This document shows, in pieces, positions 2,778-45,255 of a stretch of DNA of 64,000 nt. The notes under the pieces were generated by a model, which saw only the letters and a list, made by a program, of their open reading frames with translations, searched no databases and was not told the DNA's origin. This DNA comes from Cyanophora paradoxa CCMP329 (lineage: Eukaryota > Plantae > Glaucophyta), in contig QPMI01000535.1 in the NCBI GenBank assembly GCA_004431415.1, forward strand, positions 372,001 to 436,000, given 5' to 3'. The position numbers and the translations under genes are program-made. How positions within the stretch are numbered: the stretch's first letter is position 1; each line of letters opens with the position of its first letter.

Positions 2778-3206
2778 GCTGGCATAAAAGTGAAGTATTA
2801 GATTTTAAACTTCTATGCTGGCATAAAAGTGAAGTATTAGATTTTAAACTTCTATGCTGGCATAAAAGTGAAGTATTAGATTTTAAACTTCTATGCTGGC
2901 ATAAAAGTGAAGTATTAGATTTTAAACTTCTATGCTGGCATAAAAGTGAAGTATTTGATTTTAAACTTCTATGCTGGCATAAAAGTGAAGTATTAGATTT
3001 TAAACTTCTATGCTGGCATAAAAGTGAAGTATTAGATTTTAAACTTCTATGCTGGCATAAAAGTGAAGTATTAGATTTTAAACTTCTATGCTGGCATAAA
3101 AGTGAAGTATTAGATTTTAAACTTCTATGCTGGCATAAAAGTGAAGTATTAGATTTTAAACTTCTATGCTGGCATAAAAGTGAAGTATTTGATTTTAAAC
3201 TTCTAT
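2778..3206. repeat. Tandem array, 11 x 39 bp (GCTGGCATAAAAGTGAAGTATTAGATTTTAAACTTCTAT)
   Basis: Exact 39-bp period. Copies 5 and 11 share an A>T variant. No spacers. Confidence 0.98.
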
Positions 3207-5743: not shown

Positions 5744-6052
5744 CTCGGAAAAGACGATGATCCCGTTCCCGTCCGTATCAAACTCGTTGATCATGTTTCT
5801 GCACAGCCGCCGCGGCCGCGGCGCATTATTAATTGCACGTCACCACACAAGTAGGAAGCCTAAGGAATTTCGAATGCATTCGCGAACGCATACGTACTGG
5901 ATCTCGGCGTCCGTGGGAGTCTGGCCGTAAGATGCCATGACCGCGACGATTTCGGCTTTGGTCATGGAGCCGTCTCCGTTGGTGTCGAAGTTGCTGAACG
6001 CATCCGCGATCTCAGAGATCTGCTCTTCGGTGAACTGCCCCGTCGATGCCAT
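5744..6052 (-). pseudogene. Calmodulin-like EF-hand gene, N-lobe only (downstream exons not found)
   Basis: MASTGQFTEEQISEIADAFSNFDTNGDGSMTKAEIVAVMASYGQTPTDAEIQ, intron, NMINEFDTDGNGIIVFSE, then a GT donor with no recognisable next exon. Confidence 0.7.
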
Positions 6053-7976
6053 CTGGATCTGCGCACAAACTCGAAGCGGTGAGCGCGCGCGATCGCGAGC
6101 CAGCTGCAGCGCCCCGACGCGCATGCGCCTAGGCCTGCAGCTGTGCCCTGGCCTGGCCAGGCCGACCGCGTGCGTATACGTATATACGTATTCGTATACG
6201 GGCACGGCGCGGGCATGCGCACGGCCGATCAGCGCACCGGTTCGAAGCCTTAAGCTAAAACGCGAACGCGCTAGGGTGACCCGGTGTCCTTCGGAATACA
6301 AGTTCTGTCCGTCGGACAATGAGCGCTGAAGCTGGATGGTGTCGAGCTCGAGCACACTGTGACCGTGGCGTGTACTATAACTAGGAGCGCTATATAGCAA
6401 GCTGCACGCGCTAGCGATAGGCACCGCTAACGCTCCTAGCATGCACACGCACCTCCTACGAGGGATCCTGGGCCGGGAAGCGCGCGTGATCGACCGTGCA
6501 GCGTGCGCATGCGCGGGACGCGGCGCTGAGTCGGCGGCGCCGGCGCCGGCGCCGAATGGGCGCGCCGGCGCCGGCGCCGGCGCCGGCGGTACTTCCGGAA
6601 GTTTTTTCTGCCGGATCATCGGATCTGTCAAAAAAAGAGCCCCCCCCCCCTTCATCCACTTGCCAACTTGCAAAAAAAACGAATTCGAATATCGGCCGCG
6701 GGCCAACTCGGACGGTAAACTCGGCGGGCCAACTCGGACGCGGGAACGTTGACTTGTAACGAGCAGATCTAGGCCCGATTCTAGAGTCGCCGGCGCCTCA
6801 CGCCGAGCTCGAGGGACACGCGTACGCAGAAACCGAGACCGAGAATTCGAAGAGGGCAAGGCCAGGAGCTCGAGGAGAGACATCAATGTTTTTTTAAAAA
6901 TGCATTTGCGCCGAATCAATGCGCGTGCGTACGGACATTGTCGGACAATACTCGCTCTTCATAATCCTACTCTTGCTGCAGCAATTGCAAGTATGTTTGG
7001 GAATCATCACCATCATTGTTCATTTCCGACCACAAACGTCAATTTTCAAGCGAGGCGTTACATTCAACAGCAAGGCGATGCATTTGAATATTCGGACTTA
7101 TGTTCGAATGTTCCAGCCTTTTTACTGATCGGGATTCGGGAGCCACAGGCGCACGTCTGCTTCGGCATCGAGCGGGGGCGGGGGCGAGGGCGCGCCCTCG
7201 CCCGCCCCGAGCCGCACGCCGCCCTCCTGCTCCAGCAGCAGCGCGAGCTTCCCCGACATCACCGTCGCCCCGTCGAACTGGCGCCCGTTCGCGTTCCCGT
7301 GAGCGGCGGCCCGTGCTCAGGGGGCGAGGAAGGGGGGATCCAGATCTAGAGGGGCGGACCTTGCAGCCGTGGAACTCCTGCGCCCGCTTCTTCCCGATGC
7401 GCCTGGCGCAGAAGACGCGCTGCGAAGGGCCTTGCGCATCAGCGGACCGGCTCACATAAAGCTTCGAAGAGGCGGCGCGGATCGCACGGGGAGGGTCGAG
7501 ATGGATACGGTCCCGTCGGGGCGGGCTGCCGCCAGCAGGCCCCGACCGCCAAGCGCGTCCTGCGCGCGCACGCGCGAGCATCAGAATACGCGCGCGCGGT
7601 ACGAGAGAAATGCAAATTAAATCTATTTAGCCGGCGCACCTCTGAAAACGCGTAGCCTTTGAGTTGTTCGGACTTTGCTTCGGCCGCGGCCGCGGGTCCT
7701 TCCTAAGTACGGTACACGTGGTCATGATCAGCGGCTAGTTAACGTTTGGCGGGCTGCGAGCGAACAGCAACGAAATAAGAATTCCCCGCACCTCGGAGGG
7801 CGCGTGTCCGGACGCCGAGGCCGCTGGGGAGGCCGAAGCCCAGACCACCTCCTCCTCGCCGTCCGGAGCGACGGCGCACACTCTCGTGTCAACCTGAGAC
7901 GAGATTCACGCGCGGCGCGGGACGGCCCGCGCCGCGCCGAGAGATAGCCTAAGGTGGCTTAGGTGTGGCGGTAGAG

Positions 7977-10900
7977 TTAAGACTCTGCCCTGTCGCGCGA
8001 GCGCGAGCTGGCGAACTTCAGCTTGACTTGGCCCCCGGCCGCGGGGGCCTGCAGCCGGCCACGGCCCTCCGCACGGGCGCCCGCGAGCTCGACGCCGGCC
8101 TGCATGTCCCAGACGAGGAGCGAGCTATCCACGTCGGCGCTCCCCGTCACCACCCGCCTCCCGTCCTGCCGCCACCGCCATCGCCAGCCCCGCGCGAGGT
8201 TCCCAAGTCAGTTCCCGAATGCAGAGTGCACGTGGTTTCGTCGAGGTCGATCTCCCGCCCCCAGAGCTCCGGGGATCCTAGAAAGCACGTACACGCACTA
8301 TCGCTGCCTATCGCGCGCGCCACGCCGCTCACCGGCGAGATCGACAGCGATGTGGCGAGCATGCTGATGGTCCGGCCCGAGGCCGACAGCCGCGGCTTCC
8401 GCAGCTGCACGCCCGTCTCCAGGTCCCACACCCGCAGCGTCTTGTGGTCGCACCCCGTCACGATGTACTTGCCGTCCTGAGCCGCGCGTAAGTACGCGTA
8501 ACGCGTCCTTTATGATTCGTATCATCCGCAGATGTCTCTCGAACTCACCGGCGTGATAGCGATCGAAGATGCCATGCTCTTGTGGCCCTTCAGGCGCCGC
8601 AGCTCGGCCCCGCTCTCCAGGTCCCAAACGCGCAGGGTCCAGTCCCGGCTTCCCGACACGGCGCGCCTCCCGTCCTGCGGTCCGTCCGAAAATTAAACCG
8701 CGCGTCAGCGTTGGAGGCTTTCCTGCCGTGAGATCCCGGCCCGGCCCGCACCGGCGAGATCGCGACGGAGAGAACGGGGCCTTCGTGACCCGTGATCACC
8801 CGCAGCTCCGCCCCGCTCTCCAGGTCCCACAATCGCAGCGTCTTGTCGCCGCTGCCCGACAACGCGCGTTTCCCGTCCTGCGCGGCCCCGGGCCCCCGCG
8901 TCAAACGTGGTCGAATGCCGCACACGCTTCTTTTTGCCGAAATAATATCGAGTTACAGAGGCTCTCGGTCAAGCTGCATCACACGCACCTGCGTGACTGC
9001 AACGGAGACGACCGTGTCGTCGTGGCCCGTGAGCGTCCGCAGCTCTGCCCCGCTCTCCAGGTCCCAGACTCGCAGCGTGTTGTCCGCGCTCCCCGACACA
9101 GCGCGCAGCCCGTCCTGCGACCCGAAAATCCAAGTAAATTTGAAGAATGTGCAATCCTCCATCCGCTTCGGCTTTTTAATAATTATTCAAGCTTGAAGTC
9201 TTCGACCGTGCCAGGGCCCGCAAAGTCTCGAACGCACCGGCGAAACCGCCAACGAGCGGACGTACTCGGTGTGCCCAACAAGCTGCCGCAGCTCCTCCCC
9301 GCTCTCCAGGTCCCACAGACGCAGCGTCTTGTCCTCGCCCCCCGACAGTGCGCGCTTCCCGTCCTGCGAGCGATCCGAAGAGATTACAATCGCAGACAGG
9401 CCGGGGCTATTCATATGCATGGCACTCTAGCACTCCGTGCCTCTCGCGCACCGGCAGAACCGCGACGCAGTACGCATCCCCGTCGTGACCAGTGAGCCGG
9501 CGCAGCTCGGACCCGGTCTCAAGGTCCCACAGCCGGAGCATCCTGCCCTCCTTGCTCCCCGACACGGCGCGCTTCCCGTCCTGCAACGTGCACAAGGGCC
9601 GAAGGTCAGCGCGAGCTGTGTCGAAAACGCTGAGCTTAATTATGATCTTGAAAATGTTAAACGAAAGTATAGGCCCCAACTCCCTAAGTCGGCCTCTATC
9701 GGCCTTGAAACGCTGGCCGGCGACGTTTAGGAAGACGCCCGTCAGCGATGTTTAGACAATGGCAAGCCGTTCTTGCATTCGAACTATTCGCAGTCGGTCT
9801 ATCCGGGCCCTCTATCGACGTCTCGGTCTCTCTTCAACCGCGGGTCGCGTCCGCGCACCGGTGAAATTGCAACCGACCAGACGTCGCCTTCGTGACTCGT
9901 AACCTGCCGTAGCTCCGCCCCGCTCTCCAGGTTCCACAATCGCAGGACTTTGTCGTCGCTGCCCGACACGGCGAGCTTTCCGTTCTGCGGCGCGCCTGGT
10001 CAGCTTTCGCGCCTGCACCAGCGAAGAAGCGCGCCTGCTTCCAAAAGACATCGTTCTAGATCTAGGCCTCGCGATCGGCTGCTAGTCTCAAGCGTTCGCT
10101 CCCAATATTCGACTTCGAATCTCTCATTTCCCGTACCGGCAAGACCGCCACCGAGTTGACGGTGCTCTTGTGGCCGGCGAGGCACTGCAGCTCCGCCCCG
10201 CTCTCCAGGTCCCACAGCCTCAGCGTCTTGTCGCCGCTCCCCGACAACGCGAGCTTCCCGTCCTGCGGCCGCCATGTCAGCACCATAGAAATGAGAGTCC
10301 ATTCATTTTCGCACGCACGGGCAAGAATGCCAATGCGAAGACCCGATCCTCGTGGCCCGTGATCACCCGCAGCTCCGCCCCGCTCTCGAGATCCCAGACC
10401 CGCAGCGTCTTGTCCTTGCTTCCGGAAAGCACACGCGTTCCGTCCTGAGATCCGAGGCCCGCATCAGAAACCAGAGCATGCGCAGCCTCCAACGCGCACG
10501 CACCGGCGAGATCGCCACCGCGCGGACGGACCGCTTGTGGCCCACAAGCACCCGCAGCTCTGCCCCGCTGTCCAGGTCCCACACGCGAACCGTCTCGTCC
10601 TCGCTGCCCGACACGGCGCGCTTTCCGTCCTGCGAAGCGACCAGATTCACAACCGGAGGCTGGGCTTATTAGACTCTCTCCTGGCCGCATCCACGCACCG
10701 GCGTAATGGCGACGGACCAGACGTCTTTCTCGTGACCGGTGAGCCGACGCAGCTCCGAACCGGTCTCCAGGTCCCACACCCAGAGCGTGTGGAGGCTGCC
10801 GGACACGGCGCGCTTCCCGTCCTGCAGCCGAGAAACGCTCGCGATTGATGGGCAGCGAGGGCCCGCCGACGGGGAGCGAAACACAGAGGCCTCCAGCTCA

Positions 10901-13900
10901 TTTAACCGGCCTCTCTTAGTTCGTTTGGGCTGCTAATTACAATTCGATGTAACGCTTCTTTTCTGGCGCCGGCGATTTATGAATGGTCATCAGCTATATA
11001 GATGCGTTATCCTGGTCACAAATTTATAGACGCCCATGACGAGTTCGGCGCCTCCAGATCCGTGGCCGTAGAACGTGAACGCTTCCGAACAAGCGCAAGT
11101 CACGCGTGCGCACCGGTGAGATCGCGACTGCATGGACGTCGTCTATATGGCCCGCAAGCACCCGCAGCTCTGCCCCGCTGTCCAGGTCCCACACGCGAAC
11201 CGTCTTGTCCTCGCTGCCCGACACGGCGCGCGTTCCGTCCTGCAGCCAACTCATTAACAGAGTCACCCGAGCCAAATTAAACACTCGATTTATGGGAGGC
11301 CTAGGAGATATGAGATCTTTTCCCTTTTCCATTCAACGTTTCGCCCCCGAATGACTAAGCATGCGCACCGATGAGATCGCAACCGACCAGACGTCGCCAT
11401 CATGACCCTCCAGCCTGCGCATCTCCGCCCCGCTCTCCAGGTCCCACACCCGCAGCGTCTTGTCGTCGGCGCCCGACACGGCGCGCTTCCCGTCCTGCGT
11501 GGCGAGCAGCGCCAGTCAGGACGGATCGAAACACCCTTAAATTTTCGTGAATTGTGGCTTGCACCGCACCGGCGTCACAGCGACGGCGTTCACGGACTTG
11601 GTGTGTCCGTGGAACGCCGGGTGGAGCGTGACGCTGCAGCCAGTGAGGACAGAGCCGCGGAGGTCCGCCCCGCAGAGGTTCGCTTCGAGAAGGGTAGAGC
11701 CGGTGAGGTCCGCCCCGCGCAGGTCCGCCCCCGCCGCTTCCATCCGCTGCAGGTCGGCTCCCGGCACTCGAATGCCCCACAGCTGGCTGCCCGCGAAGCT
11801 GAAGCCAGCTGCGAAAAACCATGAACGTGATCAGCAGTAAAACTAAAAGCTAAATCAGAGCCGATCGCACCGCGATTGAGGATCGTGATGGCGTTCGCCG
11901 AAGCAGTGATGTCCCCCGGCGTCGCGTCCGCGCGACGGCTCTTCTTTATTAAGCGCAAAAGTTCCTGTTGCCATAAAAATGCATATGGGAGGGTAAGTGA
12001 TGATCATAAATGTTCCCCAAAGCATGATAATTTCTCGCTTGCGCACGTTGCGGTAGTTGACATCGGCGGTGCAATGGTCAGCGAGGAACTGAACGATCTT
12101 GGGCTCCTTTGTCAGCAATCTGATCGCGAGCCGCGCCAGCCGGTCAGAACACGCAGCGCGGGATTCGGAACAATAAAAAGCCCCGCGCAAGAACTCGCAC
12201 CGCAAGTGCAGAAGGCTCGGCTCCGCTCGCATGCTGGCTGCTCCGCTCGCGCCGATGCTTTGCACTAGATAGACGCTCTGCAACCTTGCGCGCGGCCGTG
12301 ACCTAGCCTCTCTCTCAATCGCCTGAGACAGACGATGGTCAAAAACTTGTAGGACAGGCGCAATTTACATGCAAAAAAGGATGAAGCACCGAGCGAAACG
12401 CGTCAGAACCATCCGCGTACGCGCCCTCCGCGACGAAATACTCGAGGAGAGTCTGTCGCTGGCTGTCAGACCGACAAGCTACAATTTTCAAGGCCTCGAA
12501 TCAATATTCGAAGGCGGACCTTGTGGAGGAAGCGAGCGGCGGTGCCGCCGTCGACGTCCCGCGCCTTCGACACGCGCATCGGGCAGTTCTCGCGGCAGAA
12601 GACGCGGACGGGGTCCGTCGCGTCGGAGAGGAGCTTGACGCAGCGCTCCAGGTCCGCGCTCGACGGGCTCCGCTGCGCGGTCGCGGTCGCGGGCGCGGCC
12701 GAGGACGGAGCGGCATCCGGGCCTGTCGCCGTCGCCGTCGCCTCGAGACCGATCGACATCGGGATGTACTTGGCGCTCTTGGGCTTCTTCTGCGGGCAGA
12801 GAACTTCCGAGACATTCGCCTGCGCGCGATCGCGAGTAATCATTAAATTGCAATTCAAACAGCGCCGGCTTCATTATCGTTATATCATTGCAGATCCGGT
12901 CGTACTTTGAACATGGAAGTGGCGAGGTCCTTGCAGAACTCGAGGCAGTAATCTTGGAAATCATCCACCTCCCAGTCTCTCAGAAGTCCTGATCGATCGT
13001 GCGAGCACTTTAGCTTTAAGACCAGAGACCGACCGCGGTATTAAGACGTCTCCACACCGTTTTCCTTGGCCGCCGCCGTCGTGGACTTGTTCCATTGCTG
13101 CCTAAACCAACGCTGCGCACGCGCATGGACATTAATCCACACGCAAATATAATGTTCCAAAGCGAGAACATATTCATCGTCGTGTATAGCAGACCTCGAC
13201 GAATTTCTGGTAGAGTTCGCGGATGGTCAAGAAGTACTTGGAGGCGACCTTGACGCTCCCGCCCCGCGTGCGGAAGAGCTCCTCCTGGCTGCATCGGGAT
13301 CGCAGTGCCGGTAAGCCTATGTGAACTGCGGCGAGCGAGCATAGGCACGCGCATGAACATGTATAGCACACCGGCTCTTCAAGATTCTTGGCAGTGATTC
13401 CACCACCATGCTGCGCGTCGAGGCGGTTGCAATTGTTTCTTAGCGAGAAGATTCCCCCACGCGAACTGAGAACCAGCGGGAAGATACCTGAGCGTGAAGG
13501 GGTTCTCGATGAGCGCCGCGGTGCCGGGGACCTGCGCAATGCGAGCCACGTACTCCTCCACGGTCCACGTGCAGTCCGGGTCTCGCTTCCCCTCCGGCGC
13601 GCCGGGCCCGCGGGCGCGAATGTACTGGCCGATGTAGTCCTCGACCTGCCGCCCGACCGCGAACGCTCAGCGTCGGCGGGCGCGATCCAGAATCGCTTAA
13701 GCCGACGGAGGCGGCCTCGGGTACCTGCCCCGCATCGAATGGGTGCGTGCAGACCTCCTCCAGCGGCTCGCCCGCCGCCGCAAATAGCGACTGCAGCAAG
13801 GATCGGGTATAACACGGCGCAAACGTTGGATATATACGAGCGCAGCGCACGGGATAGTCGGACTGGGCGGCGAGGTACGCCGAGCGGCAGGTGACGACGG

Positions 13901-16900
13901 CCGCAGAAGCCCACTTGCCGAGCTCGTTGCCGCCGCCGCCGGCCGTCCAGAGGGCGGGCGGGCGGCCGCCCCCGCACTCCAGCTCGTCGTACGCGTCCAG
14001 CAGCAGCACCAGCCCGCGGCTGCGCAAGCAAACTGTGAGGGGCGGCAGAGGCCAGGGCGGGCAGGCGGTCGGGGCCGGCGGTGCCTCTCGCGCAGGGCCG
14101 GCAAGTCGGCCTCGGGCAGGCCGAGAGCGCGGGCCGCCTCCGCCCGCAGCCCGCCCGCCGCCCGCTCCCTGGAGAGGTTCGAGAGGCGCAGCAGGCACGT
14201 GACGGGCAGGCCGCCCTCGCCGGCGGGCGGCCGGCCGCGCGCCTCGGCCCACTGCGCGCAGGCGGCGCGGTGGAGGTGCGCGAGGAAGGTCGACTTGCTG
14301 GAGCCGGGCTCCCCGCGATGAGCACCACGCGGCCGGCGCCGGCGGCGGCGCCGCTGGCGGGGACGGCGGGGGCGGTGCCCCGGGCGGGGAGGCGGCGGCG
14401 CAGGAAAGCGGCGACGTGGCCGAAGAGGTCGACGACGACGCGGCGCGCGACGTCCGCCGTCGCCTTGGGCGGGACGTACAGCGCCAGGGCCTGCGCGGCG
14501 TCCTCGTCCCCCAGCTCCCCCCGCGCGTACTGCGCAGTTGCAAGAGCCGGCGTCAGGATCGGCTCACGATCGTTGGAGGGGCGGGGAGCGCGCTTTTAGG
14601 ACGGCTTCGCAAAGGGACCGGTCCGGGGCGTCTCGCGCGAGGCGAGCGATCGTGTCGCGAACGAGCGCCGAGGATCCGCGAGGTGCCCCGGCCGCACCGA
14701 GCGCCTTCGGGAAGCGCGGAACGGGTACAGCGTTCTCCTGTCAGGCGGTCACGATCATAATCAGGGGCAGGGCGGGAGGAACGGAGGCGGGGCGTCGATA
14801 TCGCACCGCGGACGGCACGCCCAGGAACTTGCACGCAGCGGCGTCGGATGCCCTCTGCGCGGCGCCGCCGGTCGCCCACATGCGCTGCAGCGCCGCCACG
14901 GCCGCCGCCGCCGCCGCCGCGTTTCCGCAGCCGTTCAGCGCCGCCAGGTTGGCGAGGGCGCTCGCGACGACGCCGAGGACGTCCGCCTTCCCTGCCGCCG
15001 CGGCCGCCTCCGCGAGGCGCTCCATCCACTCGACGGCCCCCGCGCCAGCGCCCCGCGGCCTTCGCCGCCGTCGGCCTCGGCGACCTGCGCACAGAGCGCC
15101 GGCGCCGATCGGCGGACGCTCTCGAGCCGCGAGGCGCGCCGGGCCGCGCGCACCGAAAAGAGGGCGGCGCAGAGGGCGGCTGCGGCCTTCGGGTGGCCGG
15201 CGGCGTCGGCGAGGGCGCCCGCCTCGAGCTCCGCCTCGAGCTCCGCGAGGTGGCCGCCCTCCGCCAGCGCCGCCAGCAGCCGGGCCACCCGGTACCTGCC
15301 GCCCCGCGTCGGTGATCATGAGCCCCGCCGGCCGGGGCTTCAGCGGAGGCGGCGGCGCAAGCTAGAGGGCGCGGGACGGCACCAGCACTTCTTCTTCTGC
15401 GGGCCGCCGACGCCGAGGATGAGCCTGAAGTCGGCCCAGAATTCCCGCAGGTCGTCCACCAACTCGCCCCCGTCGAGCACCTCCTGCGCTTCGGTCGACC
15501 GAAGGCGAGGCGCGGGGAGGGCCGGGCGAGGACGGCGCGGCACCTTCGCTTTGACGGCGAGGTCGATGGCGGTCGTGACGCCGAAGCTCGAGACGCCCTC
15601 CAGGACCACCTTCCCCGCCCGGTACAGCTTGTGCACCACCCGCCCTGCCCGCGGCCGGCCGGCCCGTGAGTGCGCGCGGGACGCCGGACAAGACGCACAG
15701 ACTCACCGAAAGCCTTCGCGCGGCCGAGGGCGTCCTGCAGCGGGTCGTAGTCCGAGCGGGCGGCGGCGAGGGCCTGCCGCGCGAAGCTCGCCGCCGCCTC
15801 CGCCCGCCACCAGCCGCAGCGCTCGAATCCCTTCAGCAGCGCGTCGAGCTCCCGCACCGTCCCTTCGTAATCCACCGCAGGCGCTGCGAATCGCGCGACG
15901 TCGACGGGCCGCTGTGCGCGCGGGCAGGGCGGCGGGGCACCGTCGGAGTCGAAGCCGGCGCCGTCGCCGCGGGCCTCGACGGCAGCGAGGACGGCCGGCA
16001 CGAGCCGCAGGTAGGACAGCGCGTCCACATCCCCCGGCGAGGCCGCCGTGACGCCCTTCAGCTGCGACCGCGGGCCGCCGCGCGCGTCACGCGGCGGGGC
16101 GGGGCGGGCGGGGAGGGGCGGGGCGGGCGGGGCGGGGCGGGCGGGGCGGGGCGGGGCGGGGCGGGGCGGGGCGGGCGGATCCGGATCCGCACCTGCTCGA
16201 TGCAGAACTCGACGAGGCGGGCGCGGTCGGTGGAGGTGAGCGTGCCCCGCGGCAGCCGCCCGAGCACGTCCGCCAGCGCCCCGACGCGCGCCGGCGGCAC
16301 CCGCGCCAGCACCGTGCTCCTCCCGAGCGACAGCAGGACATCCAGGAGCTGCGAACAGGCCGCGCCGCGGCGTCAGTGGCGGGCCAGAGACTTCGCGCCG
16401 GCGAGCAGGGGCGGGGCGGGCGCAACGCTGCGGGAGAGCTCGGCGTCGCCCGAGAGGACGACCGCGCAGACGTCGGCGAGCGCCGCCGGCGAGTCCAGCG
16501 TCTGCTCCGCGAAGACCTCGACCGCTGCGCGCGTTCGCGTGATCACGAGGGCGCCCGCTTGAGCTTGAGGAGAGGCCCGGGCGGACAAGCGCGCGCAAGC
16601 GCATATGCATGCGCACCAGCGCGGCACGCTTCCTTCGTCGCCTCCAGCGCCTTCGTAACGTCCCCACCGTACTGCCTCCGCACCAAGGGAAGCTCCAGAG
16701 CGAGCCGCAGGGGCGCGTCGACGTCGGGCCCGCTGCCCGCCCGGCCGCGGGCGGCAGCCGCTGACGCCTCCCGGAGGAGCCCGCAGAGGCCCGCGAGCTG
16801 CGCGACCGACGAGGCGTCCTCCAGCGCATTCAGCTTCTTCAGCTCGTCCGCCCCGCACACCCACGCGAGCCCCGCACGCCCACGCGCGGCCGAATGGGCC

Positions 16901-17352
16901 CCGAACGGCGACTTCTTAGGAGCTGCGCGAGCCGCGGGTGCTTGCGCTGGAGCCGCTGCATGCGCAGCTGAGGCCAATATGCCGCTGGGCTTGGCGTTTG
17001 CAGCTACAGCCGATGATCCGTTGCTGGCCGCGATTGGCGCGACTGAAGCTGCGCATACAGCGCTGCAGCTGACGGCCGCGGCGGCTCCGCTCGGCGTCTG
17101 AGGCCCGAGCGGAGACCCCGCGCGCGCTTGCGCATCATCTGTTGGGCTCTTCTTAGCGCTGTCGGCTGCTGGGGCAGCGTTGGTCGTCTGCAGCTGAGCC
17201 TGTCGGACGCCCGCCGCTGGAGGACTCGCGGGCATCGCGGGGCCTGCGGGTATCTGCTCCTTCTGCTTCTCCTTCTTCTGCTTCTTCTCTTTCTTGCGAA
17301 CAGGCGCGGCAGCTCGCGCTTTGGCTGCCGAAGACGAGACACAGCAGCCCAT
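7977..17352 (-). CDS. NLR-like STAND protein: acylation-type N-terminus, helical domain, NACHT NTPase, pentapeptide repeats, ~14 WD40 repeats (multi-exon; 1-nt frameshift at Walker A)
   Basis: MGCCVSS start; LYVPP pre-NACHT motif; VVLIAG(E)PGSSKSTF, which needs +1 nt at 14311-14314; LVLLLDAYDEL Walker B; VVTCR; FLHK/TLLEYFVAE; ADLRGADLTG repeats at ~11650-11770; repeated DGKRAxSGSxDKTLRxWDLESGAEL...GH exons from 11494 to 7977. The 3' end is tentative. Confidence 0.85.
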
Positions 17353-17862
17353 CGCGTCCGAGCGCTCCAGCTTCGGCAGCTCCAGCTTCGGTTGCTGCTG
17401 ATTCCGATGCGCAGCTGCGCTCCAGCGGCGTCGTACGCGTGCCCGCTAGTGCTCGCATGGCTGCTGCTCCGAATCGAATCGGCGCTTGTTGCACTGTACC
17501 CGGGCTGCGCGGCATCGGAAATCAGAGAGCCGGCCGCCGCATGAGTTCTTCGAGAGATCGAGAACGCTGCGATCGAGATTCGAGACTCTAAAGCGCGCGC
17601 GCGGCCCGAATTAATATTCGAAACGCGTATGCTTGCAAGGGCAAGTTAAATTACTTCCGCCAAACTACTAGTACTAGTCCGAGCGCTTTTCTCAAGCAAA
17701 GTCAGCGGAATTGCAAACGAGAATCATTGAATCGCAATACTTACAGGCTTGCATGCTTAAGGCTTAGAGGCTTACATGCTTAAGTTAGGTTATGCGGCGA
17801 ATGCTGAAGACATTAATTAAAGCTACTTAAACTTGAATGCAGCCAGGGGGACGACGGGCCGG

Positions 17863-18205
17863 TCAGCGGGCGACGACGGCGGTGGACAAGCCCGTTGGGA
17901 CGCGCCCCGGAGGGAGGACGTAGGTGGCCAGCAGGTCCGGGGGTTCGGGGTACGAGGAAGAGGGGCCGGGGGCCGGGGCGGGGGCGGGGGCGGGCGCCAC
18001 CGCGGCCCCGGGGTCCGCCCTCCCCCCGCCGTCCTCGTGGATGGCGGCCAGCGCGGGGGCGAGGGGCGTGGGCCGGCCGGCGCAGGCAGAGGAGGCGTGG
18101 GAGAGCGTTCGCCCGAGGCCCCGGTGGGGCCGCGGCGGCCGCCCCGCGAAGAGCACCTCGCGGACCGCCGCCGCGGATTCGAACCTGCGGCCGCCGCGGG
18201 TTGGG

Positions 18206-18241
<36 letters not shown>

Positions 18242-21200
18242 TAAGGAGGGGGGTAGAGTCGAACCGCTGCGCGGGGTCCCTCCGCAGCATGCGGGAGAGG
18301 ACTGAGGCGAGGTGGGAGGAGATCGGGAGGCGCGCGGCTGCGCGGGCGCCCGTCAGGAGGGGCGCGGCGGGGTGGGGCGGCGCGGCGGGCGGGGCGGACG
18401 GGGCGTCCAGTCGCAGAAGTACTCGTACGTGGGTCGCGCCCGCGTCAGCAGCTCCACGCACGTCGCCGCCAGGCTGCCCCCAGGTCGGCGGCGCCCCGCG
18501 GGGACGGGAGAGAGGGGGGCTAGGGGCACCTGTAGAGGTCCGAGGAGGGCGTGGGGTACCCCCGCCGCTGCTCGGGGTCGCTGTAGGCGTAGGTGCCGAT
18601 CTGGGGGCGGCGGGTGAGGGGCGGGGGCGGGGGCGGGGCGGGGCGGGCCGCGCCATGGTGGCCTGCTCCCAGTCGGGCCGCGAGGTCGTCGAGAGGCCGA
18701 AGTCGACAAGGTAGTAGTCCCCTGCGGCCGCCGTCAGGAGCGGCGGCGGCGGCGGCGGACGGGCGGGGGGGCGGGGCACCGTCGTCGCCGGCGATGATGT
18801 TCGATGGCTTGACGTCCCTGCGGCGCCCTCAGCGCCGCCCCGCGCCCCGCCAGGGCGAGCGCGACGCGGGGGGCGGCACCTGTGCAGGATCCGCTGCGCG
18901 TGCACGTACGAGAGCGCGTCCGTCATGTCGTCCAGCAGCCGCAGAATCTTAGGGCAGGGCCGCGCGGCACCGTCAGCCACCGGACAAGGGTACAACGACA
19001 GACTGTGCGGAAAGGGGGGTACCTCGGACTCGTGGAAGGGTCCCGATCGGTCCTTCATGATCCGCTGCAGGTCGCGCCCGGGTACAAAGTTCATCACGTT
19101 GTACAGGTCCCCCTGGGAGGTCGAATCAAGAGGGGTACGGTGACGAGAGGGGGTACGGCCTTGCCTGCCACCGGAACGAGCCGAGGAGCTTCGGCACGCA
19201 GGGGTGGTCGAGGTTCTCCAGGACGCGGCCCTGGGACGGGGTACCGCGTCAGCCTCTCGGGGGTACCGGCACCGGGGAGGGGTACACCTCCTCGAGGAAG
19301 AGCTCCGCGGCCTTCTCGATGTGCTCCTCGTTGCCGTTCTTCTCGAAGAACGTGAACTGCGGGGGTACGGCGATGAGGGCGGGGTGCGACGAGCTCGGGA
19401 GGATAGAAGCACCTTTTTGACGACGCATTGCTTGCGGGACGGTGAGTGGAGATCGATGGAGACCTGAGCCCTCGAGTTGGCGGCGGCGCGACGGGACGGG
19501 CGGCGCGGGGGGCGGCGGGGCGCACGAAAGCGGTGCCGAACTCGCCGCCGCCGACCCGCGACACGGGCCAGAAGCGCCTGTTGATCGCCTGCAGTTCGCG
19601 GTGCGTGAGTAGGGGATGCAAGATAACGGCGGCAGCAGGGATGCTCGCCAGCGGGGCGCGGCAGAGGGGGCACGTCGCGTCGATCGCGTCGGCCTCGGTG
19701 GCGCAGCCGCCGCCGCGCTGGTTGCAGCGCATGCAGATCGACCTGCGCGGCCGCCTCCCCTCAGAGCTTCGCTTCGGGATCGCTTAGAGGCGGGACGCAC
19801 GTCTCGGCGAGGGGCCCCGCGCTGGGCGCCGACGCCAGGTTCGACGCCATGCGCGGCACCGACGCGTACAGCGAGCTGCGCGCCCCCCTCAGCTCAACTC
19901 CGATGCGCATGTAAGATCGAGGGGAGGGGTCGGGCGTACTTGGCGTGGGGGAGGCTGCCGGGCGTCGTCGTCGGGCTGCTCGCCTTGATGGCCGTCGACG
20001 AGGGCGGCTGCGCGGGGGCGGGCCGATCAGGGAGGGGCGGCAGGCCGCCGGCGCGCCTCCTCCGTGTCGGATTGCACCCTGAGGCCGCTGGGGGCGGAGG
20101 CGAGGCCGCTGGGGGCGGAGGCGAGGCCGCTGGAGAGGCCGACCTCCGAGTCTGTGGGCGCCAGCGCTGCGGGGCGGCCGTCCCGGCTTCAGGAGGCGGG
20201 GCGGGGCGGGGTGGGGCGGGGCGGGGCGCGTCGGCCCTCCCAGTCTAGCCGCAGGCCGGAGGAGGAGCGACGGCACGCACCGGAGGAGCTGACGCGGCGC
20301 CTCTCTGCGCCCCTGCGGTGCGCGCCGACGACCTTCCACGCCACAATGGCCGCCGCCAGCACTGCGCAGCCTGAGCGGGGGCGCGGGACAGGTGGCGGGG
20401 AAAGGGGTACAGCGCACCCGCGATCGCGACGCCGCCCGTGACGACGCACGCGACGATGACGACCATCTGCGGGAAGCGGGGTGCGCGTTGAGCTTCTCGG
20501 GGGATGGGAAGGTGTCCGGGTACGCGCGCACCGTCGAGTCCGAGGCGGGCGGCGCCGGGGCAGCGGGCGTGGTGTTGCTTGTCGGTGCGCCCCCCGCGGC
20601 CCCGGTGCTCGTGCCTCCCGCCGTCGAGGCGCCCCCCGTGGACCCGGCAGCCGTGGTACCCCCCGTGGTTCCGGTGCTCGCGGTGCCCCCTGCAGAGGTA
20701 CCGGAGTTCGACGTAGATGTACCCCCCTGCGGCCGCTCAGGGCGCCGCGGAGCTCCAAGGCGAACCGAGGGGGCGGCCGCACCGCAGCGGAGGCGGAGGA
20801 GGCGCCGGCGACGGTCTCAACGTTGGCGGGGTCGAGGAGCGTCAGTGAGCTCGCGGAGCTGAGGAGGACCGAGTTCGCGTTGGTCCCTGCACCCGCGTGA
20901 CGTCAGCCGCCGCGGCTCCGGCGCTCGAGGCGCGCGAGGCTTGGGGCGGGGTACCGCTCTGTCCGAACACGACGGCATCGGCGCTGATGGGGGGGGTCCC
21001 GCGCCGAAGGTACTGGACAAGGCTCTGGGTACAGGGCAGCCTGGTGCAGTCGTTCGCTGCGCCGGCGTCGGCGGGGGCGAGGCGGGGGGCGCCGGGGAGG
21101 GGGGGGGGGAGGGGGGGGGGGGGGCTCCACGCACGGGTGTTGACTATGTTCACGACGGGTCCGACGGTGAAGCTGACCCCCGGTTCGCTGGGTTGGAACC

Positions 21201-21782
21201 GGTACTGCCCCACCTGCGCCGGCGCGGGTCGAACGGAGAGGCGCTCGAGCGAAAACTGATAGCGCCCGGCGGCCTGCGGGGCGCCCGCTCTGCCGGCACG
21301 CACCGCCAGATCTTGGAGCTGGACGGTCAAGTGGCCCCGCTTGTGCTGGACCCCCGAGATCGTGCGGAAGCAGAAGCGGCTGAGCGTCGCGTCACCCCGG
21401 ACCTTCCCGTCGCTGCTCGCCCCGAGGTAGCACTGCGCGGGGCGGGGCGCCGGGCGACGGGCGCCGGGTCGGCAACGGCGGGGCTCGGGGCGTGCGAGGC
21501 GGCCCGCGGCGGGCAGACGGGGCGCACCGGGTAGATGGAGAATCTCTCCGGGAGGCCGCCCGACGCGTCCCACGTCAGGTTCAGGAGCACGACATCGTTG
21601 CCGGGAATCACTCGCGTGACTGTGACGTCCGTGCCCGCCGCCGCCTCCGGGAGCAGCGCGAGCAGCACCGCCGCCGCGACAAGAGCGACGGCCGCTAATC
21701 GCTGTCCGTGCGCCCAGCCGCCGGCCGCGCGACCGTGTGGGGCCGGGGCCGGGGCCGGCGGCCGCGGCGCAATAGCTGTCAT
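17863..21782 (-). CDS. Receptor-like Ser/Thr kinase: signal peptide, ectodomain, T/G-rich stalk, TM helix, Pro-rich linker, C4 zinc motif, Pkn2-like kinase
   Basis: Hydrophobic signal LAAVALVAAAVLLALLPEAAA; TM MVVIVACVVTGGVAIAG/AVLAAAIVAW; CMRC...CPLC; GGGEFG, CVVKK, H/RDVKPSNII, DFGL, GTYAYSDPEQ, SDLY, RFES. Splice phases across 19940-19740 are compatible with a single gene. Confidence 0.75.
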
Positions 21783-22235
21783 CCAACGGCCGGCGGAGAG
21801 ACGAGGAAGCTCAAGAAGAATTGCCTTTCATTAAATGTCTCTCTCTTGCTGGCCTCTCGAGCTACGGGGTGAGGCGGCCAGGCCACGAGCCGCTGAGTGT
21901 CGACGTCAAGGCAGGCTTCTAAAGCGAGGGAGGCGGGCGAGGGCCGGGCGAGGGCTGCTGCAGCACGCCTGACTCACAAGCTGGCAAGTGGCAAGCACGA
22001 CGCCCCTGCGACTTGGCTGCCAGTCGATGCCGACGAAAGGCCCGCGGACAGCTAGCGCGGCGTTCGACGAACTACAACTCTGAATCTACAGCTCAGAATC
22101 TACAACTGTGCTCGAACTGAGCACCACCCGGGGAAGGGCGAACACGGTTGCAGGCTGATCCAGTGCAGCTGTACCCGGGATCGTCGATTCCCGGACTCCG
22201 AATCCACCAGCGGGCTTCCGCCCCCCCGAAGCGAG

Positions 22236-23583
22236 ATGGCTTTCGTAGCGGCTGCACCGCTCAACGTCGCTGGCGCTCGCGTACGTGGCCCGAGCCTCAG
22301 CCTTCCCCCGCGCACCCTGCTGGCCCGGCGGACTGCACGATCGGGTGAGAGCTCTCTATCGTAGTAGTATCTACACGACTGGCGCCGCCGGCGTCCGCAC
22401 GTGACGCGCTGACGAATTCGGCGCGTGCTGCGATCGATATCTGCAGGCCCCGCCGACGCCGGCGCGGCCGAGCGTGTTCACTTCACCATTCAAGGGTCCG
22501 CCGCGGAGAGCGAGCGTCTGCGGCCGTCCGCAGGCGCCGCCTCTCGTGTCGCGCTGGGCTTGGCCGCGGGCTTTGTGGCCGCCGCTCTGGCGTCCGCGCC
22601 CGTCGCTGTGGAGGCAAAGGCCATCTACGGTGCGAGTGCCCTCGCGAGTCGCCCGGTCGCGGACGCCGCTTGCCGCGCAGGCCTGCCCGCCCTCCGCGCG
22701 GCCCTTCTAACCGGTACCTTCGCCCCGCGCCCCGCGCGCAGACCACGTGGACATCCTTGAGTTTGATTTCTCGAACAACAAGGAGAACCTCGTAGGGGGC
22801 GTCTTCGACAAGTGTGACGCCTCCGTGCGCCCCGCCCGCCGCTCGAAGCCCGGCGGCCGCCCGGCAGCGCCGGGCCTGACTCGCGCGCGTGGGCGCGCAG
22901 GGCGCGAACTTCAGCCACACGGACATGTCCAACGCGACTGTCTCCTACGCCTCCTTTATTGACGCGAACTTCGAGGGGACGAACCTCACGAACGTGCGCC
23001 GCGCCGCGCCGCCGCCGGCCGGCGGGGGCACCCCCCCCCTCCCGCGAATTTGATCCCCGGGGTACGGGTCGGACGCACAGATTCTGGGGGACCGGAGCAA
23101 GTGGGAGGGGGCCAACCTCAAGAACGCCGTCTTCGCCAACGCGCTCATGACCGGTGCGCGGCGCCCGCCCCGCGGGGCTCCGAGGCTTTCCGGCCCCGCC
23201 CCGCCCCGCCCCGCCCCGCCCGCCCCGCGGAGCCCTCGGTCCCGGCCCGACGGCCCCGCGCGCCCCCGCAGGCGTCGACTTTGCTGAGGTCGCTTCGATC
23301 GAGGGTGGGTGCCCCGCGCCCGCCGCTCGCCGCCGCTCGCCGCCTCAGGAGTCTCACGGGCGCCTCGCGGCCAGGCGCCGACTTCACGGGGGCCATGCTC
23401 GACCAGTACCAGTACCAGGCCCGGCCCCCGCCCCGCCCCCAGGCCCCGCCCCCGGAGGCCTAGGCCGCCCGAAGCCTCGAGACTGAGCTTCGTGGGCGGC
23501 AGGTCCTCTGCGACCTGCCCTCCGCCAAGGGCGTGAACCCGACGACGGGCGAGGAGACGCGCGCCAGCCTCGGCTGCGAGTGA
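22236..23583 (+). CDS. Plastid thylakoid-lumen pentapeptide-repeat protein (TL17/TL20.3-like)
   Basis: MAFVAAAPLNVAGAR transit start; hydrophobic lumen signal ending AVEA; repeats ANFSHTDMSNA, ANFEGTNLTN, ANLKNAVFANA, ADFTGAML; C-terminal LCDLPSAKGVNPTTGEETRASLGCE typical of this family. Confidence 0.9.
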
Positions 23584-43092: not shown

Positions 43093-44689
43093 CTAGCTGG
43101 CCGTATTGTGGATCTTCGCTTGAAAAATAATTTTTTGGGCGGAGAGGGGATACCGGTTTCCAAGGGAGGGGTACAGCACTCTGAAACGAAGCGAAACTGG
43201 ACTGCCTGCAGAATCCAGCTACCTGCAAGAGGAAACGAAACTTTCACGACACAGCGGTGTGACTGCGGCAGCTTCCACAAGTTTCGTGACTTCGAAACTT
43301 CGAAATTCAAGGCAACCGAGGCTACCTGTGTTTCGGTGCCAGTGTCACAGTACTAGTGTACTGGCCATGGCCAGTGGCCACCGTACCGTGGCACAGGCCA
43401 GTGACCGTGCCACGGTGGCACGTGCACTGTGCACAGTGTACGTACATGTGGCAGTACTAGTACTACTGTCTGTACCGGCCCGGCGGCCACGGGGCGCGAT
43501 TGGCGAATTTCGAATCGGCGGCGATTGCGGATTCGCGGCGCCTGCAGCTGCAGCTGCGCTATAGCGCTAGCGCTGCCTGCGCTGCTGCGCATGCATGCAG
43601 CGCATCATCAATGATTCATCATTAGCAGCGCAGTCGCGAGTCGAGACTCGAGAGTCGAGAGTCCGCCGGTCTGCATAGTGGCCAGCGAATCGGCGCCGCC
43701 TGCAATATGATTGATTACTATCATGGATGGCTGCAGCTGCAGCTTTCCCATCGCTTGAATTATTTTTGAATCGTTTCAAAAGCGCGGCGCTGCCGGCCGC
43801 TAGTAGGCCCGCTAGTGGGCCGCTACTGCTGGCCAGTAGTACTGGGTAGTACTGGCCCGCTAGCGCTGCATGTGCCGGCGCTGGCCCGCGGACGGCGCAG
43901 CAATCATTGAATTATTTGAATCATTGAATCATATCTCATCAATGGCTAGCTAGCTGCAGGCCTGCCGCAGGCTGCCGCCAGGCTCAGCGGCTGCGCCGCG
44001 CCAGCGCCTGCATGCGCCGGGCCGGGCGGCCCGGCCGCCCGGGCCGGGCCGGGCGGCCGGCCCGCGGGTGCCATCGAATCATTGACCATGACTGATTGCA
44101 GCTCGATGCAGGGGTACCCCGGCGGCGGCTGCGGGCGCGAGCGCGGGATCGAAAGCGAACGAAACTTCGGCGCGCGCCCCTCTTTCCAGCCGCCGTTTCA
44201 GCGTCGATGCGCACCGCAAGCTGAATCCGCAGCCGCAACTGCCCTGGCTGGCCCGGTTCTCCCGCTCTGCGAATCGCGCCCCAAGGCCGGCTCGCCCGCC
44301 CTCGCCGCCCGGCGCGCCTGCGCGAAGCACAGCCCGACCTCGGCCTGCATGCGCCGTTTTCCAACGATCGGCTCTCGTCAAGCGCGCTCCGGCGTCTCGT
44401 CGCCGCGCCCGCCAACGCGCTCGCCCCACGACGACCCAGACCTTTACGTCCAGCCGCATCATCCGACCTTTCTGGCTCGCCGCCGCGCTTCTCGGTGCGT
44501 ATCCTTGCCTTCGGAAGGCCTCTGCGCCCGCCACGAGGCCTCCGGCGCGTGTTCGCAGTTGACGTCTCCAAGTTGCAGGTCACCGCCTCAGCTGCCCCGC
44601 GCGCCATGCGCTTTCCGCCTCCGCGAACGTGCAGCACGCGCAGGGCTCGGCATTCTGGCGATTCGCCGCCCGCGCCGCCGCGCTCCTGG

Positions 44690-45255
44690 CGGACCGCCCC
44701 AGCGGCCCCCCACGAATCGCGCCCCCGCTCCCGCCGCAGCTGCTCCGCTGCCCCTCGCCGACGGCGCAATTCGCCGCCGCTGGACCCACGCTCGCTCTCT
44801 CCAGGCCCGCCGCCCGCTCCGCAGCCTTTCTGGCGGGCCGCCCCAGCGGCCCCCCACGAACCGCGCCCCCGCTCCCGCCGCAGCTGCTCCGCTGCCCCTC
44901 GCCGACGGCGCAATTCGCCGCCGCTGGACCCACGCTCGCTCGCTCCAGGTCCGCCGCCCGCGCCGCAGCCTTTCTGGCGGGCCGCCCCAGCGGCCCCCCA
45001 CGAACCGCGCCCCCGCTCCCGCCGCAGCTGCTCCGCTGCCCCTCGCCGACGGCGCAATTCGCCGCCGCTGGACCCACGCTCGCTCGCTCCAGGTCCGCCG
45101 CCCGCGTCGCAGCCTTTCTGGCGGGCCGCCCCAGCGGCCCCCACGAATCGCGCCCCCGCTCCCGCCGCAGCTGCTCCGCTGCCCCTCGCCGACGGCGCAG
45201 TTCGTCGCCGCTGGACACACGCTCACTCGCTCGAGGTCCGCCGCCCGCGCCACGC
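44690..45255. repeat. 144-bp GC-rich tandem repeat, ~4 copies (also ~53710-54276)
   Basis: AGCGGCCCCC anchor at 44701, 44845, 44989 and 45133. Confidence 0.9.

What the first reader, a model, noticed from the sequence alone, without database searches (positions are those of the whole stretch)
7977..11800. NLR-like receptor with one WD40 repeat per interchangeable phase-0 exon
Seen: about 13 consecutive exons of mostly 123-129 bp, nearly all CAG|GACGG...CCG|GTG, each one WD40 unit. The scaffold is constant while residues after SG and after GH vary strongly (DGDVWS, IDDVHA, EKDVWS, KRSVRA, EDRVFA, KSTVNS, TEYVRS), and the introns look unrelated to each other. Known: fungal HET-E/NWD proteins diversify by WD40 shuffling, and brown-algal ROCO/NB-ARC genes use one-repeat exons. 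Inference: frame-safe exon skipping or shuffling could generate a variable pathogen-sensing propeller in this alga.
Basis: partly seen in the sequence, partly recalled or inferred. Interest (0 to 1): 0.7.

Follow-up and report, generated by a model that had tools for sequence, protein, structure and literature searches.

The report
Algal sensor gene, one-exon WD40 repeats
A spliced gene of the single-celled alga Cyanophora, likely an immune-type sensor, builds its 14 WD40 repeats from one exon each, and the repeats vary most at the positions that fungal non-self sensors diversify, likely by DNA-level patch exchange rather than by exon skipping.

Summary
Observation confirmed. Fourteen phase-0 exons (11494-8017, minus strand), each one WD40 period, close a NACHT-pentapeptide-WD40 gene; their introns are unrelated. 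The gene matches a public Cyanophora paradoxa model and has at least 19 paralogs. Its nearest outside relatives are the Mortierellomycota/Mycoavidus NLR-like proteins. The variable codons include all four positively selected positions of Podospora HET-E repeats (pN 0.57 at six sites against 0.16 elsewhere). Identical tracts of 30-51 nt inside exons, with unrelated flanking introns, point to exon-limited gene conversion. Spliced contigs join neighbouring exons in order, and no displayed joint skips at exon borders. One exon-5/11 hybrid switches inside a 32-nt shared tract and is probably an assembly artefact. Repeat number is 14 in four of six close family members, which fits two seven-bladed propellers. 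Exon 7 looks decayed, and the spliced 3' tail is out of frame. A metagenome contig of another eukaryote has the same intron position and varies at the same codons. Verdict: a new WD40 variant of the brown-algal one-repeat-per-exon layout; skipping is not shown. The scan had noted a TPR analogue elsewhere, no WD40 case.

The parts
16615..17352 (-). First coding exon: MGCC start (predicted lipid anchor), low-complexity linker, start of the N-terminal helical domain
   Evidence: 98% to public model P0122 residues 1-251; spliced-run contigs cover parts of it and reach 17468
14594..16525 (-). Exons of the N-terminal helical region, shared with 12 paralogs; the window lacks one base at 15036 that contigs of two runs carry
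   Evidence: no Pfam hit for residues 1-245; Atlas hits under 0.8 for a paralog's region
14291..14314 (-). Walker A, GEPGSSKST (family-wide G-to-S); frame restored by one base at 14310 seen in contigs of X1 and X3
11871..14529 (-). NACHT-type NTPase exons with Walker B LLLDAYDE, ending in SANAITIL
   Evidence: Pfam NACHT in paralogs E 5.6e-5 to 0.13, below cut-off
11570..11808 (-). Pentapeptide-repeat exon, ending with the first GH and strand a
   Evidence: PF00805 E 1.3e-11; joint 11808/11871 in 4 of 4 runs
11369..11494 (-). WD exon 1 (126 nt)
11114..11239 (-). WD exon 2 (126 nt); 51-nt identical tract with exon 4
10699..10821 (-). WD exon 3 (123 nt)
10504..10629 (-). WD exon 4 (126 nt)
10319..10444 (-). 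WD exon 5 (126 nt); 32-nt tract 10356-10387 identical to exon 11
10137..10262 (-). WD exon 6 (126 nt)
9859..9984 (-). WD exon 7 (126 nt), degenerate: D1N, WD to WN, GH to SH, lowest GC3; candidate inactivated exon
9452..9580 (-). WD exon 8 (129 nt)
9238..9363 (-). WD exon 9 (126 nt)
8989..9114 (-). WD exon 10 (126 nt)
   Evidence: covered without mismatch by a contig of X5
8752..8877 (-). WD exon 11 (126 nt)
8549..8674 (-). WD exon 12 (126 nt)
8333..8476 (-). WD exon 13 (144 nt, divergent)
8017..8165 (-). WD exon 14 (149 nt, divergent, holds the last WD); donor at 8016 is phase 2
7122..7893 (-). Five tail exons (7893-7792, 7702-7640, 7559-7488, 7419-7360, 7277 onward); the frame that paralogs conserve is missed by the junction seen in RNA

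Best explanation
This is a spliced NACHT-pentapeptide-WD40 gene of Cyanophora paradoxa, likely an NLR-like sensor, whose 14 one-exon WD40 repeats are predicted to fold into two seven-bladed propellers and likely diversify by short gene-conversion tracts inside exons plus selection on the top-face residues, not by exon skipping. Shown: layout, splicing, paralog family, position of the variable codons, sub-exon identical tracts, unrelated introns. Inferred: one exon-plus-intron unit was tandemly duplicated long ago; the introns then diverged, so homology-dependent exchange is now confined to exon DNA, among repeats and among paralogs. The 7+7 fold holds the count near 14. Inferred from STAND biology: a non-self or damage ligand binds the propeller clamp, the NACHT domain oligomerises, and the N-terminal domain signals (helical here, TIR-like in some paralogs), probably at a membrane through the MGCC end.
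For: All 14 exon peptides occur exactly in P0122; two paralogs carry Cyanophora paradoxa accessions. Twenty of 110 hits are gene models with the same naming style; the 18 of them placed in a NACHT tree form one side of a branch with 99% support (quick tree). Highest entropy in five other family members falls at exon positions 34, 36, 10, 33 and 12, with rho 0.73 to the window gene. Paoletti 2007 places HET-E's selected pairs in the d-a loop and the b-c turn, 18 codons apart, which matches 34/36 and 10/12. pN is 0.57 at six such sites against scaffold pN 0.16 and pS 0.415, and exceeds scaffold pS in 52 of 66 pairs. Exons 2/4 and 6/9 give Fisher p 0.018 and 0.004. Scaffold pS is below the 0.57 expected at saturation. 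Exons 2/4 have pS 0.13 and a 51-nt identical tract, yet their flanks match at 11 and 13 of 30 nt; the 32-nt tract of exons 5/11 has p 0.001. For 22 of 65 repeats the nearest neighbour lies only in another gene. The paralog model shows 14 four-strand blades with a break after blade 7; top fold hit 2ymu_A, E 1.3e-62. Displayed joints 2-3, 3-4, 4-5, 8-9, 11-12, 12-13 and 13-14 link neighbours.
Against: No ligand, death or defence phenotype is known. Selection tests are pairwise counts on related repeats: 4 of the 6 pairs tested were not significant, and pooled dN/dS at the six sites is about 1. Only 6 of 66 pairs have significant tracts (about 3 expected), and the 5' and 3' halves are not less congruent than random splits. 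Repeat identity (65% aa) is below the 80-100% of HET-E. Walker A has Ser for the conserved Gly. This copy shows decay: exon 7, and an out-of-frame tail junction in 3 of 4 runs. Joints 5-6, 6-7 and 7-8 were not displayed, so skipping of exon 7 is open. Paralog introns are inferred from gene-model slips only.
Confidence: 0.62

Rival explanations
1. [quoted passage not shown]
For: All WD introns are phase 0 with near-identical splice sites. A contig joining the 5' part of exon 5 to the 3' part of exon 11 stands in X2 and X4, and by length and depth arithmetic in X5 and X1; it would drop six repeats. Exon 7 has 16 of 19 scaffold changes toward A/T against 83 of 169 in the others (p 0.003, about 0.035 after 12 tests) and three core-residue losses, as an unused exon would. 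P0053 has 17 units.
Against: The hybrid switches inside a 32-nt shared tract, not at a splice site. That length is just over the 31-letter word of such assemblies (recalled), and X5 also holds exon 10 at similar depth. No exon-border skip appears among the displayed joints (15 of 17; 15 of 64). There are no spare or reversed exons. An exon straddles two blades, and the count is 14 in P0122, P0047, P0121 and P0127.
Confidence: 0.17
2. The gene is a decaying paralog, and the variable sites are simply unconstrained surface loops, drifting without positive selection.
For: The RNA-supported tail junction loses the conserved C-terminal motif (stop at 7261), and intron read-through stops at 7979. Exon 7 is eroded. 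Pooled dN/dS at the variable sites is about 1.
Against: Scaffold pN is 0.16 against pS 0.415, so purifying selection acts. Eight of the 12 exons have no core-residue change. Paralog-specific repeat sequences appear in the same runs, and paralogs vary at the same sites. In L005 two exons differ only at 5 codons, all non-synonymous and all among the six sites (p about 7e-6).
Confidence: 0.13
3. A non-immune scaffold or signalling protein whose repeats differ because each blade has a fixed partner.
For: No functional data exist; the Walker A is atypical; the repeat number is stable.
Against: Position-matched repeats of the window gene are no closer to a paralog's than unmatched ones (0 of 5 comparisons significant). 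The family is expanded, swaps N-terminal domains (TIR-like in P0053, P0127, P0129), and its relatives are described as NOD-like receptors.
Confidence: 0.08

Closest known systems
Mortierellomycota / Mycoavidus NACHT-pentapeptide-WD40 NOD-like receptors (bioRxiv 10.1101/2021.12.02.471044 writes 'NACHT-PPR-WD40'; passages seen)
   Same: Domain order, the ANAITIL-pentapeptide junction, and best outside hits at 23-28% identity over the NTPase region.
   Different: Walker A is GxxGxSK in 19 of 19 Cyanophora paralogs and GK in 18 of 18 relatives checked. It sits in a glaucophyte. The intron layout of the relatives was not examined.
Podospora HNWD/NWD genes het-d, het-e (PMC1805685, PMC12222747; passages seen)
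   Same: NACHT plus WD40, a predicted double seven-bladed clamp, the same variable positions, and repeat exchange within and between genes.
   Different: No HET domain; a pentapeptide linker; repeats 63-87% identical rather than 80-100%; every repeat is separated by an intron; no allorecognition shown.
Brown-algal ROCO-LRR and NB-ARC-TPR genes (PMC3341825 passages and section 17; PMC11378527 abstract and section 15)
   Same: One repeat per equal-length, frame-preserving exon in a candidate immune receptor of an alga.
   Different: WD40 closed propeller instead of open LRR/TPR solenoids; in Ectocarpus the layout was restricted to LRR and TPR. No spare or inverted exons in the introns, and no splice variants shown here. 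Brown-algal ROCO introns are phase 2 (PMC11378527).
Highly repetitive WD40 protein, PDB 2ymu
   Same: Top fold match for the paralog's model, 39% identity.
   Different: Structural match only; says nothing on gene layout or function.

Membership tests
NLR-like STAND proteins (NACHT class) | Three parts: N-terminal effector, NTPase, C-terminal repeat sensor | tested here: met
NLR-like STAND proteins (NACHT class) | NACHT domain by profile | tested here: inconclusive
   Single exons give no hit. Five paralogs hit PF05729 at E 5.6e-5 to 0.13, below cut-off. Homologous fungal and bacterial hits carry PF05729.
NLR-like STAND proteins (NACHT class) | Canonical Walker A GxxxxGK[ST] and Walker B | tested here: inconclusive
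   Walker B intact; Walker A is GEPGSSKST, with Ser family-wide; nucleotide binding untested.
NLR-like STAND proteins (NACHT class) | Ligand-triggered oligomerisation and signalling | not testable with these tools
   needs biochemistry
Mortierellomycota-type NACHT-pentapeptide-WD40 | Pentapeptide repeats between NACHT and WD40, and homology across the NTPase region | tested here: met
Podospora HNWD | N-terminal HET domain | tested here: not met
   No Pfam hit for residues 1-245; the region to 560 matches only Cyanophora paralogs among the proteins searched; residues 246-560 were not scanned against Pfam on their own.
Podospora HNWD | High internal conservation (80-100% between repeats) | tested here: not met
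   Mean 72% nt and 65% aa here; 76-80% aa in three paralogs.
Podospora HNWD | Hypervariable codons in the d-a loop and b-c turn | tested here: met
Podospora HNWD | Repeat-number polymorphism among strains | not testable with these tools
   no second genome held
Brown-algal exon-shuffling receptors | One repeat per equal-length frame-preserving exon | tested here: met
Brown-algal exon-shuffling receptors | Spare, inactivated or reversed exons inside introns | tested here: not met
   nhmmer finds only the 14 exons and the pentapeptide-exon tail; exon 7 may be inactivated.
Brown-algal exon-shuffling receptors | Alternatively spliced repeat combinations | tested here: inconclusive
   Contigs only, joint tables cut, one doubtful hybrid.

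The most novel reading that the evidence does not exclude
Unicellular eukaryotes, including a glaucophyte and at least one other lineage, run a WD40 version of an exon-cassette immune repertoire. NLR-like genes keep one propeller repeat per exon, swap specificity patches between exons and paralogs, retire single exons (exon 7), and make shorter propellers by skipping or by recombination between repeats, such as the exon 5/11 hybrid.
Probability: 0.17. Interest if true: 0.78.

Novelty: new variant of a known kind. Interest (0 to 1): 0.52.

Why it matters
NLR-like repertoires with HET-E-style hypervariable WD40 surfaces are known from fungi, and one-repeat-per-exon receptors from brown algae (LRR, TPR). 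An expanded family that combines both in a cultured single-celled glaucophyte would extend diversifying non-self sensors to that branch of the plant supergroup. The introns also record how repeats exchange DNA: unrelated introns here point to exon-limited conversion, while 92%-identical introns in L005 point to whole-unit duplication. Intron-free fungal arrays cannot show this (their lack of introns is recalled). Long-read cDNA in a culturable alga can settle the skipping question directly.

Tried and rejected
No whole genome is held, so paralog DNA and other strains could not be read. No run is on record as RNA; six runs guessed as RNA do remove the GT-AG introns exactly. Exon 7 has no cover in any of X1-X6 while DNA run X8 spans it; a hole in contigs proves nothing and is not used as evidence. 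Eleven same-species runs hold next to none of the words: no evidence either way. The first metagenome pattern found 0 loci. The second found 5, of which 4 (L001-L004) are chance hits. The homolog search with the L005 exon did not name its organism (best 74%). The pentapeptide-exon search was swamped by generic pentapeptide proteins. An Atlas search of a paralog's N-terminal region gave scores under 0.8. The 5'/3' half incongruence test was negative. Positional tests involving P0127 are unreliable because the script mis-numbered its units. Rfam gave 0 matches. A small EF-hand-like stretch near 5900-6050 was translated in a frame that shows nothing and was dropped. Rejected: the gene ending at 7977; the intronic inserts after repeat 2 in the public model (the 2-3 joint is direct); the two 1-base gaps at 14310 and 15036 as real frameshifts (contigs carry the base).
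Full report
Observation. Fourteen consecutive exons lie on the minus strand from 11494 to 8017: ten of 126 nt, one each of 123 and 129, then 144 and 149 nt. All 14 introns before them are GT-AG and phase 0, all acceptors end in CAG, and 13 of 14 donors start GTG. An exon-shaped pattern matches 7 times against 0 in 100 shuffles. The two 126-nt exons scanned hit Pfam WD40 at E about 3e-8; exon 13 hits at 0.0017 and exon 14 not at all. The 12 canonical exons are 63-87% identical (mean 72%). The introns (56-292 nt) are unrelated: 5 of 91 pairs reach p<0.05. An nhmmer scan finds no further or reversed copies in the window.

The gene. Upstream lie a pentapeptide exon (PF00805, E 1.3e-11), an NTPase region with Walker B LLLDAYDE, a helical region and an MGCC start at 17352. 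All 14 exon peptides occur exactly in stored protein P0122. Two close paralogs carry Cyanophora paradoxa accessions; P0122 has the same naming style but was not looked up. A search with a paralog's NTPase region returned 110 proteins, 20 of them such gene models. The best outside hits, at 23-28% identity, are Mortierellomycota and Glomeribacter proteins of the same architecture. A preprint describes these as NOD-like receptors shared with the endosymbiont Mycoavidus (10.1101/2021.12.02.471044, passages). In a quick tree of 54 rows (P0130 and P0131 and other hits were left out because the script could not delimit them; the careful search did not finish), the 18 Cyanophora rows form one side of a branch with 99% support; I draw no donor from it. 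Walker A reads GxxGxSK[ST] in 19 of 19 paralogs and GK in 18 of 18 outside relatives checked. Three paralogs share a TIR-like region, and two more carry a precomputed PF13676. Nine of 20 models start MG with an early Cys, which suggests lipid anchoring (my knowledge, untested).

Expression. No run is on record as RNA, but contigs of six runs guessed as RNA remove the introns exactly. They add one base at 14310 (X1, X3) and one at 15036 (X1, X5), so those shifts are likely assembly errors; the first restores Walker A. Displayed joints are 2-3 (3 of 4 runs), 3-4, 4-5, 12-13 and 13-14 (4 of 4), 11-12 (2 of 4) and 8-9 (1 of 4, and X1). Tables were cut (15 of 17 and 15 of 64 joints shown). No displayed joint of this gene skips at exon borders. 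X2 and X4 hold a contig that runs from the 5' part of exon 5 into the 3' part of exon 11, and X5 and X1 probably do too. The switch lies in a 32-nt tract identical in both exons, enough to merge paths in a 31-letter-word assembly (recalled). X5 also holds exon 10 at depth 5.7 against 4 for the hybrid. I read it as a probable artefact but cannot exclude it. One X3 contig joins exon 8 and part of exon 9 to an unmapped piece and a second exon-9-like start; it may come from a paralog or be a chimera. After exon 14, X3, X4 and X6 splice 8016 to 7893, which puts the tail out of the frame that paralogs conserve (stop at 7261). X2 and X5 read into the intron (stop at 7979). The public model uses an acceptor at 7882 that keeps the frame and was not among the displayed joints. 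All 14 WD motifs lie before this point.

Fold. A model of the matching part of paralog P0047 (52-row alignment, mean pLDDT 81, 550 of 863 residues at 90 or more) shows 55 strands plus one residual strand between residues 72 and 655, that is 14 four-strand blades with a low-confidence break after the seventh. The best fold match is 2ymu_A. The intron position falls between strands a and b, so each exon gives b, c and d of one blade and a of the next. Unit counts in gene models are 14 for P0122, P0047, P0121 and P0127, 14-15 for P0128 and 17 for P0053. Model slips at the DG boundary in P0121, P0053, P0128, P0130 and P0131 suggest the same intron in paralogs, which is indirect evidence. HET-E alleles are likewise modelled as two seven-bladed propellers (PMC12222747, passages).

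Variation. Among 65 ungapped 42-residue units of six family members (of 83 units cut; those with indels or model errors were dropped), entropy in the five other genes peaks at exon positions 34, 36, 10, 33 and 12 and tracks the window gene (rho 0.73). Paoletti 2007 found positive selection at two pairs flanking conserved sites, in the d-a loop and the b-c turn, on the top face (PMC1805685, passages). Their 18-codon spacing matches 34/36 and 10/12. In the 12 window exons pN is 0.57 at the six HET-E-equivalent sites, against scaffold pN 0.16 and pS 0.415. Positions 27 and 29 are also variable. Two of six pairs tested show significant excess (2/4, p 0.018; 6/9, p 0.004), and four do not. Pooled dN/dS at the six sites is about 1, so positive selection is suggested, not proven. 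Scaffold pS is below saturation (0.57, minimum 0.51 in 200 draws). Exons 2 and 4 share 51 identical nt and pS 0.13, but their flanks match only 11 and 13 of 30 nt, so they did not duplicate recently with their introns. Six of 66 pairs have significant identical runs (about 3 expected), the strongest being 5/11 at p 0.001; a half-exon incongruence test was negative. Position-matched repeats are no closer than unmatched ones in 5 of 5 comparisons of the window gene with paralogs. Exon 7 is an outlier: GC3 0.74, 16 of 19 scaffold changes toward A/T (p 0.003, about 0.035 corrected), and loss of three core residues. It also spans the predicted linker between the propellers, which could relax it, though repeat 7 of P0047 and P0121 is canonical.

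Another organism. Of 5 metagenome loci from a layout pattern, one, L005, holds three WD40 exons cut at the same P|DG point in phase 0, with introns of 642 and 620 nt that are 92.5% identical over ungapped columns. Its two complete exons differ at five codons only (10, 12, 33, 34, 36), all non-synonymous. Its lineage and the rest of its gene are unknown. The layout and the hypervariable sites are thus not confined to Cyanophora, and there the unit duplicates whole.

Mechanism. Most likely one exon-intron unit was amplified to 14. The introns drifted apart, exchange shrank to patches inside exons, and selection kept the scaffold while favouring new top-face residues. The product is likely an NLR-like sensor; ligand and output are inferred. 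Skipping is frame-safe but unshown, and sits poorly with a closed 7+7 fold.

Literature. Ten searches of the open-access library found no description of this family in Cyanophora or of one-WD40-per-exon NLRs; subscription papers are not covered. Zambounis 2012 found the layout restricted to LRR and TPR genes in Ectocarpus (PMC3341825, passages and section 17). Teng 2024 reports splice variants for ROCO genes (PMC11378527, abstract and section 15). PMC13449251 (passages and section 12) surveys internally conserved NLRs and names no glaucophyte in what I read. PMC8891106 (passages) used Cyanophora only as a search set. I opened no supplements; those of PMC13449251 and of the preprint could list this family. 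The scan's earlier notes held one TPR analogue and nothing on this genome or sequence.

Verdict. Real, expressed, and a new WD40 variant of a known layout. Interest 0.52.

Noticed in passing
window 7933-7995: A roughly 60-bp element inside the intron after exon 14 has DNA depth near 9000 against about 35 for unique sequence, with many loose ends; single copy in the window. Likely a high-copy dispersed repeat, lying next to the out-of-frame donor.
   Followed up: partly
window 14291-14314 and paralogs: Family-wide Walker A GxxGxSK[ST] in 19 of 19 Cyanophora paralogs, against GK in all 18 outside relatives checked.
   Followed up: partly
L005:1-1616: Unidentified eukaryote with WD40 exons cut at the same point, near-identical GT-rich introns, and exons differing only at the hypervariable codons.
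   Followed up: partly
window 33700-57000: Large repeat block: 149-bp units in 1605-bp higher-order copies, 144-bp and 342/344-bp arrays, and a multi-kb segment near 44200-47900 repeated near 53200-56900; no Rfam match.
   Followed up: no
window 2778-3206: AT-rich tandem array of 11 nearly identical 39-bp units.
   Followed up: no
window 17860-21800, minus strand: Upstream neighbour reads like a membrane protein with a signal-like start, a Cys-rich RING-like segment and protein-kinase motifs; not scanned against families.
   Followed up: no
window 22500-23500, minus strand: A second pentapeptide-repeat-like gene with a transit-peptide-like start, read by eye.
   Followed up: no
P0123, P0137: Two paralogs keep the NACHT-pentapeptide core but have divergent, non-repetitive C-terminal regions; P0124-P0126 and P0129 models end at or before the pentapeptide.
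   Followed up: no
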